Of a DNA stretch of 64,000 nt, positions 24,790 to 31,076 are shown piece after piece; position 1 is the first letter of the stretch; the number at the start of each line of letters is the position of its first letter. This DNA comes from Pseudomonadota bacterium (GTDB lineage: Bacteria > Pseudomonadota > Alphaproteobacteria > Caulobacterales > Hyphomonadaceae), in the NCBI GenBank assembly GCA_039818665.1, contig JBCBTJ010000002.1:16195-80194 (forward strand), given 5' to 3'. A program made the position numbers and the translations under genes. Under the pieces are notes generated by a model. That model made no database searches. It saw only the letters and a program-made list of their open reading frames with translations, and was not told the DNA's origin.

Positions 24790-27048
24790 ATGAGCGGCGA
24801 GCGTCGAACCGAGTTGATCGAACAGTTGGGCGCCGAAGCGGCGGAGGTCTTGGTCGAAGCCGCCGAGCAAAGGCGGATCACCTATCCCGCGCCGCTCGCC
24901 GAAATCACGGCGTTCGGCGAGGCGGTGGACGGCGGCGAGGCCAGGCCGGAAACGCTGGAGCGCCATGCGCGCGCCATGCGGCTGACATCGCTCGCTGCGC
25001 GCGGACGCCTCGCAATCGCGGAAATGCTCGAGGCCGCCGGCGACGCGCCGCGCAATGAAGATCTCGCCGATCTGCTGGGCGCGGGCCTGCCCGAAGAGAT
25101 TCTCGAAGACGGCTTGCGCCACGCTGGCGGCCTGCGCGGCGCGGCGGCGGACCTGCGCCGCGGCGCGGCCGAGGACCAGTCAGCCCGCCTTCTGCTCCGC
25201 GGCGCGCCCGATCAGGACGCCTCGCCTGCGCTTCAGGCGCTGCTCGACGAAGGCGGGACGGCGTGGTTCATCGACCTCGCCGGCGCGGACCCGGCCGCGC
25301 CTTCGGCGGCGATCAACATCGCCGCCTTCATGACGCCGGACGGGATCGACGCCGACGCGCTTGAGACGGTGCTGCGCGCCTGCGGTCCGGCCTTGGACAA
25401 GGGCGTCGTCTGCCTTGCGGGGCTCGCCGCCGCCGCGCTCGCGCTCGGCGAAGACTACGCCGACCCGAACGGCCCGGCGGCCGCCGCGGCGCTGTGCGCC
25501 CTGGTTCGGTCCATCGTGTCCGGATCCGCGCTCACGGCGGCGAACGCCAAGCGGCTGGGCGTCAAAGCGCGCCGGGCGGCGAACAGATCCAACATCGCGG
25601 TCGTCGCATTGCCGCTGTCTTCCGCGGCTGAGATCTGGCTCGAACCGGAAAGCCAGGGCGCCGACCCGGCGCATATCGGGCTCGCCGCACGGGACGACGG
25701 CGCGGATCTGCCGGACAGCGCGCGGCTGGGCCTGGCGCGCCGCGCGCCCGAGACGCTCGGGCCTTTGATGGCCTCGCTCGACCGCGCGATCGACCTTGAT
25801 GAAACGCCGGGCCTCGGCGTCGATCGGCTGCGCGCCCGCGGCCTGTCGAGCCAGGCCATCGACCGCGTGCGCAGCGCGCTCAGCGAGGGCCTGCCGCTCA
25901 ACGCCGCCTTCTCCCGCTGGGTGCTGGGCGACGAGATCATCGCCCGGGATTTGAACCTTGCGCCCGAAGCCTTCGACGCCGACGGCCGCGCTCTGCTCTC
26001 AGCCATCGGCTTTTCGCGGAAAGACATCGACGCCGCCGAAGCCGCCCTGGACGGCGCGCGCGAAGCGCTGGCGGCCCGGACGCTGGCGGAGGCCGGCTTC
26101 ACCGCGAGCCCGGATCTTCAAGCCCGCATCGCCTTCGCCGAGGCGATCGCGCCGCATCTGTCGGCGCCGCCCGTATTGACCGCCGAAACCGCCGGCGACG
26201 CGATCGAGATCGCTTCGAAAGGCCTTGGCGCCTGCGCCCAGGGCGGCCGCACGCCGGCCGACCAGAGCATTCTGGACCGCCTCGCCGACGCCCGCCGGCT
26301 GCTGGAGGAGCCGCCGACCGCGGCTGCGCCGGTCCAGCCGGCGCCGACGGTCGAGGACGGCGGCGACGCGCCGGAGCCCGCCTCGCGCGCCCGCCTGCCG
26401 GACCGCCGCAAGGGCTATATCCAGAAAGCCACCGTCGGCGGCCACAAAGTCTATCTGCACACCGGCGAGTTCGAAGACGGCTCGCTCGGCGAGATCTTCC
26501 TCGACATGCACAAGGAAGGCGCCGCCTTCCGGTCGCTGATGAACAATTTCGCCATCGCCATCTCCATCGGCCTGCAATACGGCGTCCCGCTGGACGAGTT
26601 CGTCGACGCCTTCGTCTTCACCCGCTTCGAACCCGCCGGCGATGTCACCGGCAACGACCGCATCACCCGGGCGACCTCCATCCTCGACTACATCTTCCGC
26701 GAGCTCGCCGTCTCCTATCTCGGCCGCGAGGACCTCGCCGAAGCCGGCCAGGACGTCACCCATGACGGCCTCGGCCGCGGCTTGCAGGACGGCTCCGGCT
26801 TCGACCGCGAGGCCGCCAAAGTCATCTCCCGCGGCTTCTCCCGCGGCCAGCTGCCCGACAATATCGTCATCCTCGACAAGCGCCGCGCCGAAGCCGAAGC
26901 CGTCGAAGACGCGGCCTCCGCCGCGGAGGCGGCCCCCGCCTATCTCGGCGAGCCCTGCCCCGAATGCGGCAGCTTCACCTTGTACGCGGTCGAGGAGGGC
27001 GGCGCGGCCGTCTGCGACGCCTGCGGGGCCGAATCCTCGGCCGTCTAA
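24790..27048 (+). CDS. class II (B12-dependent) ribonucleotide reductase NrdJ-like protein, N-terminally truncated with degenerate catalytic region and conserved C-terminal domain plus Cys4 zinc ribbon
   Basis: 752 aa, with GGAGG 9 nt upstream of the ATG. The C-terminal [79 protein letters not shown]...[17 protein letters not shown] is near-canonical for long NrdJ. It ends with CPECGS...CDACG. See findings for the degenerate middle region. Confidence 0.7.
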
Positions 27049-27899: not shown

Positions 27900-28459
27900 T
27901 CCGGGCAGCCCGCCAAACAGCGCGAGACGCTCGTCCAGACCAACGCATAGGCCGCCGTCTCCTGATCGGCATGATCCAATTGCGCCGGCGACCGGGGTCG
28001 ATCAGCGAACCCGGCCGCGGACCGAGGATCAGCGCGTCGGTTGCGAGCGCGCCAAGCCGGGCGCCGGCATGCCCGCCGCACGGCCCGGGCGACAGCGTCA
28101 GGACCCGGCCTTTGCCTTGCGTTTGCGGCGGCCCGCGGACGCGTCAGCCTAGCGTCCACGCTCAATCAGAACAACCGAAACGCGCCGAAGGCGGCCACAT
28201 GGCGTTTGATGTCGGACGACTACTATGGGCGCATTTTGAGACATTAGAAGCTGATCATTCCAACGGCCGGAGTTGGCTCTTCTCAGTCCGAGACCACCGA
28301 ATGGGCGAGCGACTTAAGTCGCCCTAAAATGGACCCTCACCGCTTGGCGACCGATGCCCGAAGTGCTAATTTTTCGGCTGCTCGACGGAAGAGGAGTTCG
28401 AAGCCCATTGCGGACTTGCCGCTGCGTGCATCTCACATAGTGATAGTCGGTATCGTTTC

Positions 28460-28475
28460 GCAGAATAGATTCTGC
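28460..28475. promoter_or_regulatory. perfect inverted repeat GCAGAAT-AG-ATTCTGC upstream of islet ORF A
   Basis: Read directly from the sequence: 7-bp arms and a 2-nt spacer, ending 23 nt upstream of the GTG at 28499. Candidate operator or small hairpin. Confidence 0.3.
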
Positions 28476-28498
28476 ATATGGATTAGAACGCGTATGGG

Positions 28499-29503
28499 GT
28501 GAACACTCATCAGGAAGAACAAGTGAGTAAACTGCATAATGAGATGCTCAATTGGGCAACCCCGATCATAACCGGGGAAGATTGGCACTGGTTTGGTTGG
28601 CTGTTTGCGCAACGACCTACACGACCGTTTGTAACCCACTTAGTTGATGCTTGCGTCGAATGCGAATTGGGGCTCGAAGGGTTAGGATGGTCCCTGCTTA
28701 AAGACGTGGCCAGCATCTCGGGAAAAGAAAAGCACGAACCACATTACGAGATGCTGCTGCAGAAGCTCTCAGAAATCTTGATTCTCAATCAGCTCTTAAA
28801 GCTCCCCTGGCCTGAAGAGGCATCCTTCGAGCATGAGCCTTCGGCGGCACCAAATGGCAAAAGACCGGAATTGAAGGTTGAGACCCATCAACAAGTTTTC
28901 CTGTTTGAGGTGAAAGCGCCGGCGTTGTTATCGCATCAGCGCGCTAGAGCACTGAATCCGCTTCAGTATCCGGGGCGAATGTTTGATATGTCGATGCGCG
29001 CCATACTGTCGGGAGAGCAAGGCTCAACCTTACCCCGTGATAATCCGGTAAAGGACTTCCTGATCAGTGCGCAGAAAAAATTCTCAGAGTTCAATTTCGA
29101 GAAAGAGACATTCGGAATTCTCATCATAGTATGGGACGATTTTATATATGAACCTATAACCAGCTTGGTTCATGAAGAAAGCCAGGGGCTATTGACGGTG
29201 AATTCTTTTGCCCAAGACGAGGACGGAGCACCGTTAGAGTTCCCGAATATTAACTCGGTCATTGCAGTAAGGCATCTGCTCTATTTCCAAAAAGAAGTAG
29301 CGGAGACGTCACTCGAACGCAGCCACTGCTTCGATTTTGGAGGCGAGCATGACCTTCCGAATGTTGCGATATCAGTTCCTGGCACACTGGATGTTCCAGA
29401 GTTTGTGAAAGCGGGCCTTCGTGCTCTGGACTATGACGATGAGCGAATTAGCAGATCTGCAGACTACCGTCCCCAAGAATTGGTTATGTGGCTTAACATC
29501 TAA
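28499..29503 (+). CDS. islet ORF A: hypothetical protein with a PD-(D/E)xK nuclease-like motif arrangement
   Basis: 334 codons open in ~42% GC DNA, where stops should be frequent. GTG start at 28499, alternative ATG at 28544. Motif layout: helix HEPHYEMLLQKLSEILILNQL, then KRPE(124)LKVET, then VFLFE(137)VK(139)AP, then helix DNPVKDFLISAQKKF, then strand FGILIIVWDD. Confidence 0.6.
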   Translation: MNTHQEEQVSKLHNEMLNWATPIITGEDWHWFGWLFAQRPTRPFVTHLVDACVECELGLEGLGWSLLKDVASISGKEKHEPHYEMLLQKLSEILILNQLLKLPWPEEASFEHEPSAAPNGKRPELKVETHQQVFLFEVKAPALLSHQRARALNPLQYPGRMFDMSMRAILSGEQGSTLPRDNPVKDFLISAQKKFSEFNFEKETFGILIIVWDDFIYEPITSLVHEESQGLLTVNSFAQDEDGAPLEFPNINSVIAVRHLLYFQKEVAETSLERSHCFDFGGEHDLPNVAISVPGTLDVPEFVKAGLRALDYDDERISRSADYRPQELVMWLNI

Positions 29504-29615
29504 CCCAAGCCCGATTTGTCCGCGTTGATGGTATTCGCGAACGGCTTAAGCCCGCCCCATCTAAGACACTTGTGATTTCTGGAATGGGCGCAGAAGCAGT
29601 CGTTAGAAGTTACCT

Positions 29616-29915
29616 CTAAGATCTATACCAGTCCTGATCTGGTAGCTGACGTAACAATTGCCCTACGACTTCCAAGGCTCCGTTGTTATCGGCCCATACC
29701 AACAACTCAACGAGCCTATCGTTCTTCTCTCGATCAGTGCTTAGCGTCCATCCGCTGAGGACAAGCGGATGAGGGGGCGTCCACCGCCGATCGTGCTGGC
29801 GCAGTCTTTCCCAAAGAGTTTTCCACGGGATTGGCTTAGGACTCACCCGATCGTCGACGCAGCATTGGCGCAAGACTAACCGCGCTTCATCGCTAATGTT
29901 GTTGTTCTCAGGCAC
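29616..29915 (-). CDS. islet ORF B: small Trp-rich hypothetical protein, translationally coupled to ORF C
   Basis: 99 aa. GTG start at 29915 overlaps the last codons and stop of ORF C by 8 nt, with GAGG about 10 nt upstream. No internal Met and no TM segment. 6 Trp (IPWKTLWERL, RRWTPPHPLVLSGWTLS, LLVWADNNG, DQDWY). Confidence 0.45.
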   Translation of the reverse strand: MPENNNISDEARLVLRQCCVDDRVSPKPIPWKTLWERLRQHDRRWTPPHPLVLSGWTLSTDREKNDRLVELLVWADNNGALEVVGQLLRQLPDQDWYRS

Positions 29916-30591
29916 CTTCGTTTAACCTCATGACCCAATTTGAAATGGCGTCTACAAATAGTGGAATAATCGCCGCAGCAGCCGTCACACCGAATAGTAT
30001 TGCGAAGAACAAACCAACAATTTGCAGTGTCAAATTCAGTCGTCTGGTCCATTCCGGAATAACACGAGTGATCAATAATTTTCCGGGAAACACCAGTCCG
30101 TCGTTGGTGCGTACCTGTATGATCTGCGGCCCTTGATCCACGTAGTGCACATGGATTTGAAGAAGCTCCTGAGGCCCCAAATTTCCGAGCCTCAAAGTGC
30201 AGTGTCCTTCAGCTATGGTTTCCACGCCAAAGTTACGGTTCGGGACGACCCGCAGCTGCCAATCCATCGGACGAAAACTTAGCACAACTTCGCAGTCTTC
30301 CGCCGTTTCGCCGCCCAAATTCTGCAGAATTACGACCTCCGAATGCACCTGAGATGGTGGGTGGCCTTGCTCCTGGGTTGGGATCAAAAAGGATGCACGA
30401 GGTAAGACATTCCAGAATAAGTCTGGTTTTCTTCGGAGTTGATCCTTGACCCTCCACACAATCATTGCAGTGAGCACGGCTGAAATCGCACTAATGACTT
30501 GAGATGCAATCAAGCCCAACACTCCATCATGCGTGAAACCAACGACCCACGAGTCGTCTCGCACCCTAATTCTCGGAAAAGGGATACGCAA
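29908..30591 (-). CDS. islet ORF C: hypothetical two-TM membrane protein with a central beta-rich domain
   Basis: 227 codons open in low-GC DNA. TM1 is GVLGLIASQVISAISAVLTAMIVW and TM2 is LTLQIVGLFFAILFGVTAAAAIIPLF, flanking a ~135-aa soluble segment. The start is non-ATG: TTG 30591, GTG 30564 or GTG 30522. Confidence 0.6.
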   Translation of the reverse strand: MRIPFPRIRVRDDSWVVGFTHDGVLGLIASQVISAISAVLTAMIVWRVKDQLRRKPDLFWNVLPRASFLIPTQEQGHPPSQVHSEVVILQNLGGETAEDCEVVLSFRPMDWQLRVVPNRNFGVETIAEGHCTLRLGNLGPQELLQIHVHYVDQGPQIIQVRTNDGLVFPGKLLITRVIPEWTRRLNLTLQIVGLFFAILFGVTAAAAIIPLFVDAISNWVMRLNEGA

Positions 30592-31076
30592 CGATCATGG
30601 CGGCGGCCTTGTCTGCTCCCGTCGCTAGCCGGCGACAAGAAGTCATCCAGCTTCGTCGATATTTGGTAGCTGTATTTCATGATGTGCTAGACATATGAGC
30701 GCTTGGCGGGAGGGTCTGCGCGGCCAATGACTGCAATTGGGATCAACCCGCCATTCACACGATCATGTCCAAGCGGTGCAAACGGCCAAATTCTGTCGTT
30801 TTGATTGAGTATGAACCTATGGGAGGTCCGTCGCTGGATGACGCAGAACCGTGCGTCTCGGCGGACCCCGCTAAGGTACGCCGTCGACCGCCAGGCGCGC
30901 CAAGCCCGGCGCGCTCGGACCGCCCATATGCACTCTTCCAGCGCGGACCGGGACTCTTCGGCCAATATCCATAGGCCCTCGCCAGGCGCATCGACACTGT
31001 CGATGGGGCCCGATTCCAGGCGCCGATCATCGTGGATAGATTGCGCGGCGGCGGCGCGGGCGCCGGGCCTGGGGTT

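What the first reader, a model, noticed from the sequence alone, without database searches (positions are those of the whole stretch)
28499..29503. Islet ORF A has the motif order of a PD-(D/E)xK nuclease, with no cognate methyltransferase nearby
Seen in sequence, in order: a helix with an acidic residue (HEPHYE84MLLQKLSEILILNQL), a short strand (ASFEHEP), KRP-E124-LKVET (codon at 28868-28870), VFLF-E137-V-K139-AP (28907-28915), an amphipathic helix DNPVKDFLISAQ192KKF, and a hydrophobic strand FGILIIVWDD. This alpha-beta-beta-beta-alpha-beta order, with (P)E...ExK spaced by 12 residues, is the restriction-endonuclease-like fold signature. That signature is established knowledge; applying it here is inference, and PE instead of PD is atypical. 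The ~120-aa N-terminal and ~120-aa C-terminal regions are unassigned. No DNA methyltransferase is encoded in the islet, so it is not a standard type II R-M pair.
Basis: partly seen in the sequence, partly recalled or inferred. Interest (0 to 1): 0.7.

Follow-up and report, generated by a model that had tools for sequence, protein, structure and literature searches.

The report
Orphan PD-(D/E)xK-type nuclease gene family
ORF A is a real, intact gene from a rare, unnamed, horizontally transferred protein family that very probably folds as a restriction-endonuclease-like (PD-(D/E)xK) nuclease, travels alone without a methyltransferase or any fixed partner, and is sometimes found in anti-phage defence islands.

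Summary
The ORF (28499-29503, +; likely true start GTG 28523, 326 aa) is real. It belongs to a family with no Pfam, NCBIfam or PADLOC match: 403 clusters, or 217 representatives among 1.84 billion proteins. Found in 76 of ~185,000 species genomes across more than 10 phyla.

P123-E124 and E137-x-K139 are invariant or nearly so down to 24% identity. The conserved helix residues are E92 and K194, not E84 and Q192.

An AlphaFold model (pLDDT 91.8) shows the predicted alpha-beta-beta-beta-alpha-beta order, with E124 before beta2 and ExK ending beta3. No Foldseek hit is significant (best E 0.013, TM <=0.34), but nearly all top hits are PD-(D/E)xK nucleases. hhalign against an Hjc profile finds one weak match (P 0.008), and it pairs P123/E124/E137/K139 with Hjc P39/D40/E53/K55.

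No neighbour is conserved in 80 loci. Methyltransferases are ~2 of 142 nearest neighbours, and there is no small partner ORF. Gene GC is below its flanks in 68 of 75 loci. Some copies abut SIR2-HerA, Avs2 or Tiamat.

Verdict: a new family within a known superfamily. The fold and active-site assignment is well supported. A defence role is inferred. Substrate and regulation are unknown.

The parts
28499..29503 (+). ORF A. The maximal ORF is 334 aa from GTG 28499. The probable real start is GTG 28523 (326 aa). It is the founding window copy of an unnamed, conserved family of about 330 aa.
   Evidence: 403 clusters; 217 representatives at 50% identity; 326-aa gene calls
28512..28517 (+). Shine-Dalgarno-like AGGAAG, 5 nt upstream of the internal GTG at 28523
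   Evidence: sequence; conserved in L001
28772..28774 (+). Codon of E92, the invariant acidic residue in helix alpha1 (H80-100). Proposed to help build the metal/water site.
   Evidence: 50/50 conserved; helix assignment
28865..28870 (+). Codons of P123-E124, the 'PD'-equivalent immediately before strand beta2 (E125-128)
   Evidence: P 50/50; E 47/50 plus D 3/50; aligned to Hjc P39-D40
28907..28915 (+). Codons of E137-V138-K139, the '(D/E)xK' at the end of strand beta3 (E132-139)
   Evidence: E 50/50, K 50/50; aligned to Hjc E53-V54-K55
29078..29080 (+). Codon of K194, an invariant lysine in helix H184-196 that follows the highly conserved LPRDNPVKDFL motif (residues 178-188)
29132..29152 (+). 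Codons W212-D213-D214 ... E218, a conserved acidic cluster at the end of beta4 (E203-212) and the start of the next helix. E218 is invariant.
28397..28498 (+). Upstream region of about 100 bp that travels with the gene. It is 85% identical to L001 and contains the perfect palindrome GCAGAAT-AG-ATTCTGC at 28460-28475. It is presumed to be a promoter or operator; this is not demonstrated.
28150..30850 (.). Low-GC islet holding ORF A plus an ORFan (29908-30591, -) and a doubtful 99-aa ORF (29616-29915, -). It lies between a pentapeptide-repeat gene and aspS.

Best explanation
ORF A encodes a stand-alone enzyme with a PD-(D/E)xK (restriction-endonuclease-like) fold. It belongs to a previously unnamed family of about 330 aa that spreads by horizontal transfer as a single-gene module carrying its own ~100-bp upstream region.

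Proposed mechanism. This is inferred from the established chemistry of the superfamily and is not shown here. E124 (before beta2) and E137 (in beta3) would coordinate Mg2+/Mn2+. K139 would position or activate the attacking water. E92 from helix alpha1 would complete the site. R150, K194 and the LPRDNPVKDFL and WDD..E218 motifs would line the substrate groove. The reaction would be hydrolysis of a nucleic-acid phosphodiester bond.

Proposed role. The gene has no methyltransferase, no NTPase, no antitoxin and no other fixed partner, yet it repeatedly lands in variable or defence regions. The most likely biological role is therefore a self-contained anti-mobile-element nuclease. Its N-terminal helical bundle and C-terminal elaborations would restrict it to foreign or abnormal nucleic acid, or keep it auto-inhibited, by analogy with Shedu or type IV enzymes.

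How sure each step is. The fold and active-site assignment is about 0.85. Catalytic competence is about 0.7. A defence role is about 0.4. Substrate and trigger are unknown.
For: - Real, conserved gene: 403 homologous clusters, 217 representatives in an exhaustive scan, and 76 species across more than 10 phyla.
- Invariant E92, P123, E137, K139, K194 and E218, and near-invariant E124 (E or D), down to 24% identity.
- AF2 model with pLDDT 91.8 and pTM 0.91 has the canonical element order. In the beta2/beta3 hairpin, E124 faces residues 136-137. The core-only model gives the same topology.
- Fold-search hit lists are composed almost entirely of PD-(D/E)xK nucleases: Hjc/Hje, McrC, both BspD6I subunits, R2 RLE, HincII, Cdn1, HerA-DUF4297, LmuA, RecB-Nuc, RecU, and arenavirus and hantavirus endonucleases.
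- hhalign against the Hjc profile gives a single gapless match in the catalytic register, P=0.0077. A second alignment reproduces the register.
- Solitary module: no conserved neighbour of 70 aa or more and no conserved small ORF. DNA shared with the closest relative covers only 28397-29498.
- Horizontal transfer: gene GC is below its flanks in 68 of 75 loci. Integrases, transposases and a resolvase occur nearby.
- Defence context in a subset of loci: SIR2-HerA 46 nt upstream (L043, L073), Avs2 11 nt downstream (L009), Tiamat TmtA (L017). LmuB, a CBASS cyclase and effector, SoFic, BilD, AbiEi, Old and DrmD appear among nearest neighbours. BREX, Dpd and Qat genes lie 7-10 kb away.
Against: - No individual structural match is significant: best Foldseek E = 0.013, TM-scores <=0.34, and zero hits at E<=1e-3.
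- hhalign probability is only 5%. Comparisons with single McrC and Mrr sequences gave nothing.
- No Pfam, NCBIfam, PADLOC or PDB sequence hit.
- I could not inspect model coordinates, so the clustering of E92, E124, E137 and K139 is inferred from secondary-structure register, not measured.
- The defence association is weak. In the window and in the closest relatives the gene sits among housekeeping genes. The within-locus control showed a similar rate of defence hits 7-10 kb away, and I have no measured genome-wide background.
- The gene is absent from about 50,000 phage genomes and present on 1 of about 72,000 plasmids, so the vehicle of transfer is unknown.
Confidence: 0.6

Rival explanations
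1. Orphan type II (or IIS-like) restriction endonuclease whose cognate methyltransferase is encoded elsewhere or has been lost.
For: The fold and motif are those of restriction enzymes. The top full-length Foldseek hits are the type IIS-related Nt.BspD6I nickase (E 0.013) and HincII. One C5 and one N6/N4 methylase occur among 142 nearest neighbours.
Against: Methyltransferases are next to the gene in only about 2 of 142 neighbour positions, and none is in the window islet or within about 4.5 kb of it. An unprotected, sequence-specific type II enzyme would be lethal, yet most copies are intact. The family is strongly conserved over its full length (47% mean column identity in A1), which is unusual for fast-diverging type II enzymes (general knowledge).
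Confidence: 0.1
2. Modification-dependent (type IV-like) restriction nuclease that cuts only DNA carrying foreign base modifications and therefore needs no methyltransferase.
For: It is a solitary nuclease gene with no partner. McrC is among the best structural matches. It occurs in variable and defence regions. This is really a sub-case of the best explanation.
Against: No recognisable modified-base reader domain was detected by Pfam (SRA, EVE/ASCH/YTH, Mrr_N, and so on). There is no GTPase or ATPase partner like McrB. hhalign against E. coli McrC and Mrr gave nothing.
Confidence: 0.15
3. Housekeeping-type structure-specific nuclease (Holliday-junction resolvase or repair nuclease, Hjc/RecU-like) serving a mobile element or the host, not a defence gene.
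For: The highest Foldseek probabilities and the only profile-profile match are to Hjc/Hje. The acid-to-acid spacing is the same as in Hjc (13 residues) and both carry a literal EVK. Integrases, transposases and a resolvase occur near some copies.
Against: The protein is 2.5 times larger than Hjc, with many family-specific invariant motifs. The gene is far too rare and patchy (76 of about 185,000 species) for a repair function. It is absent from phage genomes. It is not consistently linked to any recombinase.
Confidence: 0.1
4. Toxin of a toxin-antitoxin or addiction module, or a selfish free-standing nuclease gene that promotes its own spread.
For: It is a single-gene module inserted between or within housekeeping operons, for example inside an ABC-transporter operon in L001. 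GC is strongly deviant. At least 7 of about 76 genomic copies are fragmented or interrupted by IS21, which suggests a cost to the host.
Against: No conserved adjacent antitoxin-sized ORF was found and no conserved larger neighbour. No flanking repeats are shared among loci. The mobile DNA unit shared with L001 ends at the stop codon, with no recognisable homing site.
Confidence: 0.1
5. A PD-(D/E)xK-like fold that is catalytically inactive or is not a nuclease (for example a DNA-binding regulator).
For: Nuclease activity is untested. Structural matches are weak. Non-catalytic PD-(D/E)xK derivatives exist (general knowledge).
Against: Inactive derivatives typically lose the acidic/lysine constellation. 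Here E92, E124, E137 and K139 are invariant across phyla.
Confidence: 0.05

Closest known systems
Archaeal and rudiviral Holliday-junction resolvases Hjc/Hje (Pfam PF01870), the minimal PD-(D/E)xK core
   Same: Same element order. Same catalytic layout: E in alpha1, P-(D/E) before beta2, and E-V-K in beta3, with the identical 13-residue acid-to-acid spacing. Highest Foldseek probabilities (1ob9: prob 0.84, rmsd 4.3 A over 54 columns).
   Different: ORF A is about 330 aa against about 120-140 aa. It has an extra N-terminal helical bundle, long insertions between beta3 and beta4, and C-terminal strands and helices. It has no PF01870 hit. It is bacterial, rare and horizontally mobile. Nothing points to junction resolution.
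Cap4-like defence nucleases: DUF4297 of the HerA-DUF4297 system (PDB 9c1m), Lamassu LmuA (9nxx) and the cA3-activated Cdn1 (8z4i)
   Same: Best geometric superpositions of the core model (rmsd 5.5-5.6 A over 131-153 columns; TMq 0.30-0.34). These are PD-(D/E)xK effectors of anti-phage systems. Two ORF A homologues lie 46 nt downstream of a SIR2-HerA pair, and one lies next to LmuB.
   Different: No sequence-profile match to any PADLOC model of these proteins. Those nucleases depend on a partner (HerA, LmuB/C) or a fused sensor (SAVED and similar), whereas ORF A's family has no conserved partner or sensor domain.
Shedu (SduA, DUF4263), a single-gene PD-(D/E)xK defence nuclease
   Same: Same concept: one gene, a PD-(D/E)xK catalytic core plus a non-catalytic N-terminal region, and no methyltransferase. 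In Shedu the N-terminal domain auto-inhibits the nuclease, and variants lacking it are proposed to act like restriction enzymes (bioRxiv 10.1101/2023.08.10.552793, read).
   Different: No DUF4263 or SduA profile match. Shedu N-terminal domains are hypervariable, whereas ORF A's N-terminal region is conserved family-wide (W29-H30-W31, P40). Shedu is common (about 8,000 homologues in that paper), while this family is rare.
Type IV / type IIS restriction catalytic subunits McrC and Nt.BspD6I / R.BspD6I
   Same: Top-ranked full-length Foldseek matches (E 0.013-0.06). They are nucleases of the same superfamily.
   Different: TM-scores are only about 0.2. There is no McrB-like GTPase or small-subunit partner. 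hhalign against E. coli McrC and Mrr gave no match.

Membership tests
PD-(D/E)xK phosphodiesterase superfamily | Core alpha-beta-beta-beta-alpha-beta topology with a central mixed sheet | tested here: met
   AF2 model (pLDDT 91.8, pTM 0.91) gives H80-100, E109-112, E125-128, E132-139, H143-152 / H184-196, E203-212. The core-only model reproduces it. This is a prediction, not an experimental structure.
PD-(D/E)xK phosphodiesterase superfamily | Conserved acidic residue at the start of beta2 and (D/E)xK in beta3, usually with a further acid in alpha1 | tested here: met
   P123 50/50; E124 47 E plus 3 D; E137 50/50; K139 50/50; E92 50/50 in sequences down to 24% identity.
PD-(D/E)xK phosphodiesterase superfamily | Significant structural similarity to solved members | tested here: inconclusive
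   No hit at E<=1e-3. Best E is 0.013 and TM is <=0.34. However, nearly all top-50 hits in three searches belong to the superfamily, from about 12 independent families.
PD-(D/E)xK phosphodiesterase superfamily | Sequence-profile similarity to a recognised member family, with catalytic residues in register | tested here: inconclusive
   hhalign against Hjc (PF01870) gives a single 22-column gapless match in the correct register, with P=0.0077 but probability 5%. One family member gives a weak PDDEXK_9 hit, E=0.048. No Pfam hit for the window protein.
PD-(D/E)xK phosphodiesterase superfamily | Divalent-metal-dependent phosphodiester cleavage that is abolished by mutating the motif | not testable with these tools
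   Needs biochemistry.
Type II restriction-modification system | Cognate DNA methyltransferase encoded next to the endonuclease | tested here: not met
   No methyltransferase domain in the islet ORFs or in window flanks 23.8-34.2 kb. Only about 2 methyltransferases among 142 nearest neighbours of homologues.
Shedu (SduA) | DUF4263 nuclease domain | tested here: not met
   No Pfam DUF4263 or PADLOC SduA hit for the window protein or for 50 family members.
Cap4 / DUF4297 / LmuA nuclease effectors | Profile match to the family, plus an obligatory partner (HerA, LmuB) or a fused sensor domain | tested here: not met
   No PADLOC hit. HerA is adjacent in 2 of 80 loci and LmuB in 1. No conserved neighbour overall.
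Holliday-junction resolvase Hjc (PF01870) | Pfam PF01870 match and a minimal domain of about 120-140 aa | tested here: not met
   No PF01870 hit at E<=1. The protein is 326-334 aa with large family-specific elaborations.
Type IV restriction (McrBC, Mrr) | Homology to McrC or Mrr catalytic domains; an NTPase partner (McrB) or a modified-DNA reader domain | tested here: not met
   hhalign of the family profile against E. coli McrC and Mrr found no meaningful alignment. No partner and no reader domain in Pfam. Functional modification dependence was not tested.
Toxin-antitoxin module | Conserved adjacent small partner gene | tested here: not met
   Clustering of 25-160-aa ORFs within 700 bp of the gene in 80 loci found no cluster shared by more than 3 loci, and that cluster appears to consist of fragments of broken copies.

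The most novel reading that the evidence does not exclude
The family is a new single-gene anti-phage or anti-plasmid defence system. It would be a self-regulated PD-(D/E)xK nuclease whose conserved N-terminal helical bundle (WHW motif) and C-terminal elaborations sense infection or foreign DNA. It would be unrelated at sequence level to Shedu, Cap4 or type IV enzymes, and mobile as a 1.1-kb gene-plus-operator cassette.
Probability: 0.35. Interest if true: 0.55.

Novelty: new member of a known kind. Interest (0 to 1): 0.35.

Why it matters
PD-(D/E)xK nucleases are the catalytic engines of restriction, recombination and many newly found defence systems. Yet families this divergent escape every profile library: there was no Pfam, NCBIfam, PADLOC or PDB sequence hit here. 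This work defines a compact, rare, pan-bacterial family with a clear predicted active site and no partner genes. That gives a clean, easily testable candidate for a stand-alone immune or conflict nuclease, and a seed alignment for a new profile-library entry. If the family is confirmed as a defence gene, it would add a single-gene system whose regulation must be built into one 330-aa polypeptide. If it is not, it remains a routine addition to a very large superfamily.

Tried and rejected
- Pfam, NCBIfam and PADLOC scans of ORF A and both islet neighbours: nothing.
- PDB sequence search with the protein and with a 50-sequence profile: nothing relevant.
- Pfam scan of 50 family members: only stray weak hits, plus a SEC-C zinc motif on a long subfamily.
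- Core-only re-prediction (residues 74-300) to sharpen Foldseek: same hit spectrum, still not significant.
- hhalign of the family profile against single E. coli McrC and Mrr sequences: no alignment.
- The Hjc profile had to be built from a shallow rudivirus set (57-100% identity), which limits its power.
- The idea that the 99-aa and 227-aa islet ORFs are partners of ORF A is rejected. They do not match the similarly placed ORFs in L003. They are not part of the DNA shared with L001. The 227-aa ORF is an ORFan whose only database hit is itself, and the 99-aa ORF is not called in an independent assembly.
- The within-locus control for defence enrichment did not give a clean background. Defence genes are about as frequent 7-10 kb away, so only an island-level association can be claimed.
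- The search for an 'empty site', using the flanking pentapeptide gene in metagenomes, found only distant paralogues (<=49% identity). The islet boundaries and the 18-nt flanking repeat therefore remain untested.
- The promoter/terminator scan of the islet was no better than shuffles. There is no Rfam family in the islet and no tRNA in the window.
Full report

All quoted peptide strings and codon coordinates check out. It lies in a low-GC islet at about 28.15-30.85 kb (45-56% GC, against 65-70% outside). The islet sits between a pentapeptide-repeat gene and aspS. Further out are MlaD, NDUFA12, a TSCPD-domain protein and RNase D.

The start is probably the internal GTG at 28523. It has an AGGAAG Shine-Dalgarno sequence 5 nt upstream. 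Both the closest homologue and an independent assembly of the same organism call the gene as a 326-aa protein.

The bare motif proves nothing on its own. 21% of shuffles of this protein contain P[DE]-x9-20-[DE]xK, and 87% contain the version without the proline.

**2. Is it a real gene, and how conserved is the motif?**

The large homology search found 403 clusters, nearly all about 330 aa. None carries a Pfam domain, and every name given by a source is 'hypothetical protein'. An exhaustive HMMER scan of 1.84 billion representatives found only 217, so the family is compact and rare.

- In 39 sequences with >=42% identity, about 40 columns are invariant. These include E92, E113-P114, P123-E124, E137, K139, H146, R150, R180-D181-N182, D186, K194, W212-D213-D214, E218-P219 and R258-H259.
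- In 50 sequences reaching 24% identity, the invariant set shrinks to E92, P123, E137, K139, K194, L208 and E218. E124 is 47 E plus 3 D.
- In the most divergent subfamily (about 460 aa), E92, P114, P123, E124, E137, V138, K139, R150, K194 and G230 are still invariant.

His helper residues need correcting. E84 (32/50) should be E92, and Q192 (9/50) should be K194.

**3. Fold**

AlphaFold2 with the 39-sequence alignment gives a confident single-body model, with pLDDT 91.8 and pTM 0.91. The element order is:

- an N-terminal helical bundle (residues 3-72);
- helix 80-100, which contains E92;
- strand 109-112, followed by E113-P114;
- strand 125-128, preceded by P123-E124;
- strand 132-139, ending in E137-V-K139;
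- helices 143-152 and 164-171;
- helix 184-196, which contains K194;
- strand 203-212, ending in W212-D213-D214;
- helix 217-224, which contains E218;
- further strands at 253-258, 288-292 and 309-311.

This is the canonical alpha-beta-beta-beta-alpha-beta core. Strands beta2 and beta3 form a hairpin, so E124 faces residues 136-137.

Foldseek against the PDB and BFVD with the whole model gave no significant hit (best E 0.013, TM <=0.34). A second model of the core alone (residues 74-300, pLDDT 83.9) did no better. The hit lists are nevertheless strikingly uniform. They contain Hjc/Hje from four archaea, McrC, both BspD6I subunits, the R2 retrotransposon RLE domain, HincII, Cdn1, HerA-DUF4297, LmuA, the RecB nuclease domain, RecU, and arenavirus and hantavirus cap-snatching endonucleases. 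About a dozen independent PD-(D/E)xK families fill the lists, with almost nothing else (3fov, a protein of unknown function, is in the core-model list). The best geometry is with the Cap4-like defence nucleases: 9c1m_G at rmsd 5.6 A over 131 columns, and 9nxx_B at 5.5 A over 153 columns. The highest probabilities are with Hje and Hjc (0.84 and 0.72).

**4. Residue-level test**

I built a profile of rudiviral Hjc. All members carry PF01870, and the invariants are E11, P39-D40 and E53-V54-K55. hhalign of the ORF A family profile against it returns one alignment only. It is gapless over 22 columns and pairs P123 with P39, E124 with D40, E137 with E53 and K139 with K55 (P = 0.0077, probability 5%). 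The core alignment gives the same register. The statistics are weak, but the register is the one the hypothesis predicts. The 13-residue acid-to-acid spacing is also identical in the two families. Comparisons with single E. coli McrC and Mrr sequences gave nothing.

**5. Genomic behaviour**

A scan of one genome per species found 76 loci among about 185,000 species. They span Alpha-, Beta- and Gammaproteobacteria, Desulfobacterota, Bdellovibrionota, Cyanobacteria, Acidobacteriota, Actinomycetota, Bacteroidota, Bacillota, Chloroflexota, Planctomycetota, Nitrospirota, Chlorobiota and Cloacimonadota. One copy is on an Anabaena plasmid.

- **No partner.** All-against-all clustering of ORFs of 70 aa or more in 80 loci found no conserved neighbour. 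The recurrent clusters are shadow ORFs inside the gene itself. Clustering of 25-160-aa ORFs within 700 bp found no conserved small partner either.
- **Neighbour types.** The nearest neighbours of 150 aa or more belong to 47 (upstream) and 65 (downstream) different Pfam families. Only one C5 and one N6/N4 methyltransferase appear among 142 neighbours. Phage integrases (4), IS66, IS21 and IS110 transposases and a resolvase are present.
- **Deviant composition.** The gene's GC is lower than its flanks in 68 of 75 loci (median -6.6 points; -16.6 in the window).
- **Module boundaries.** DNA shared with the closest relative (L001, 85% identity) spans only 28397-29498, which is the gene plus about 100 bp upstream. 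In L001 that cassette sits inside an ABC-transporter operon.
- **Upstream region.** The upstream 100 bp is conserved in the three closest relatives and contains a perfect palindrome, GCAGAAT-AG-ATTCTGC, at 28460-28475.
- **Decay.** At least seven genomic copies are fragmented, and some are next to IS21 IstB-type genes.
- **Vehicles.** The family is absent from 50,697 phage records and present on 1 of 72,556 plasmids.

**6. Defence context**

Some homologues sit directly against known systems:

- SIR2-HerA ends 46 nt upstream on the same strand in two Cloacimonadota loci.
- Avs2 starts 11 nt downstream in a Hydrogenophaga locus.
- A Tiamat TmtA abuts a truncated copy.
- The Peribacillus plasmid copy lies near a recombinase and a 1,174-aa SIR2 protein.

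PADLOC hits among nearest neighbours include HerA, LmuB, a CBASS cyclase and 2TM effector, SoFic, a DRT-type NUDIX, BilD, AbiEi, Old, DrmD and a type I S subunit. This amounts to roughly 9 of 73 upstream and 6-8 of 69 downstream neighbours.

A control set taken 7-10 kb away in the same loci also hit BrxL, DpdF, QatA, PsyrT and PDC candidates, at about 7 of 69. The signal is therefore that some copies lie in defence islands, not that the gene is linked to a particular system. I have no measured genome-wide background. That roughly 10% is above typical defence-gene density rests on general knowledge. In the window itself, and in the two closest relatives, the neighbours are housekeeping genes.

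**7. The rest of the islet**

The 227-aa minus-strand ORF (29908-30591) is an ORFan. Its only database match is itself, annotated as a hypothetical protein of a 'Pseudomonadota bacterium' MAG. The 99-aa ORF (29616-29915) is not called in the independent assembly. Neither has a family hit, and neither travels with ORF A.

An 18-nt near-identical repeat, GCGCGCCAAGCC(G/C)GGCGC, lies just outside each edge of the islet, at 28047 and 30895. I estimate roughly 0.1 such pairs by chance in this GC-rich stretch. With no empty site available, its meaning is open.

**8. Interpretation**

Shown here:

- ORF A is a real, intact member of a conserved, rare, horizontally mobile, single-gene family.
- The residues under the strongest constraint are E92, P123-E124, E137-x-K139 and K194.
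- The predicted topology is the PD-(D/E)xK core.
- The fold-search neighbours are almost all from that superfamily.
- There is no methyltransferase and no other fixed partner.

Inferred from established knowledge of the superfamily: E124 and E137 bind the catalytic metal, K139 activates the water, and E92 assists. The substrate is a nucleic-acid phosphodiester.

Inferred from context, and weaker: the role is as a stand-alone conflict or defence nuclease whose conserved N- and C-terminal elaborations provide specificity or auto-inhibition. Conceptually this resembles Shedu, where an N-terminal domain restrains a PD-(D/E)xK core (10.1101/2023.08.10.552793). It also resembles type IV enzymes.

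Not a member of: type II R-M pairs, Shedu/DUF4263, Cap4/DUF4297/LmuA, Hjc (PF01870), McrC or Mrr. In each case a defining feature was tested and not met.

**9. Verdict**

The finding is a new family inside a very large, well-known superfamily. It is useful as a candidate single-gene defence nuclease and as a seed for a profile-library entry. It is not surprising in kind. Interest is 0.35.

Noticed in passing
window 29908-30591 (-): This 227-aa ORF (called as 201 aa elsewhere), with hydrophobic N- and C-terminal segments, is an ORFan. Its only match among 5.8 billion clusters is itself, annotated 'MAG: hypothetical protein AAFX03_00930 [Pseudomonadota bacterium]'. That match also reveals the window's source organism.
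   Followed up: partly
window 29616-29915 (-): This 99-aa ORF overlaps the start of the 227-aa ORF by 8 nt. It has only a sub-threshold DUF2795 hit (E 0.011) and is not called as a gene in an independent assembly of the same locus (L083). It is possibly spurious.
   Followed up: partly
window 28047-28064 and 30895-30912: An 18-nt near-identical, partly palindromic repeat, GCGCGCCAAGCC(G/C)GGCGC, sits just outside both edges of the low-GC islet. It could be an insertion-site duplication or a chance GC-rich match. No empty site could be found to test this.
   Followed up: partly
window 28460-28475: A perfect palindrome, GCAGAAT-AG-ATTCTGC, lies about 25-50 nt upstream of the candidate start codons. 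It sits inside the ~100-bp upstream stretch that is conserved with L001 and L002. It may be an operator or a small 5' hairpin.
   Followed up: no
L043 2068-6627 and L073 6413-10978 (Cloacimonadota MAGs): A complete SIR2-HerA defence pair (PADLOC E about 1e-170 and 1e-260) is followed 46 nt later, on the same strand, by an ORF A homologue. The solved structure that best superposes on the ORF A core is the nuclease partner of HerA (DUF4297). This could be a three-gene variant or just a defence-island neighbour.
   Followed up: partly
L009 10950-15551; L017 10774-15417: A full-length Avs2 (1,533 aa) starts 11 nt after the ORF A homologue in Hydrogenophaga. A Tiamat TmtA (1,547 aa) abuts a truncated copy in Ideonella.
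   Followed up: partly
L037, L076, L077 (and fragmented copies in L017, L061, L067, L072, L079): Several genomic copies are truncated or frameshifted. In three loci the broken copy lies next to a shared gene pair of ~242 aa and ~534 aa. The smaller protein matched IstB_IS21 in the two of these that were scanned. This looks like an IS21 insertion and suggests recurrent inactivation of the gene.
   Followed up: partly
P0241, P0243, P0244, P0250, P0267, P0268; L081 6770-8203 (Peribacillus plasmid NZ_CP068052): A divergent subfamily of about 460 aa adds a C-terminal helical extension of about 130 aa. In some members the extension ends in a SEC-C-type zinc knuckle (CxCGS...CC; Pfam E 1.6e-8).
   Followed up: partly
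L001 7034-9051: In the closest relative (87% aa identity) the gene cassette sits inside a peptide ABC-transporter operon, between the permease genes and the substrate-binding-protein gene. Gene GC is 51% against 69% in the flanks.
   Followed up: no
window 24790-27048 (+): This 752-aa ORF has only a C-terminal TSCPD domain and a terminal zinc ribbon. Its long N-terminal part is alanine-rich and has no Pfam match. It was not examined further.
   Followed up: no
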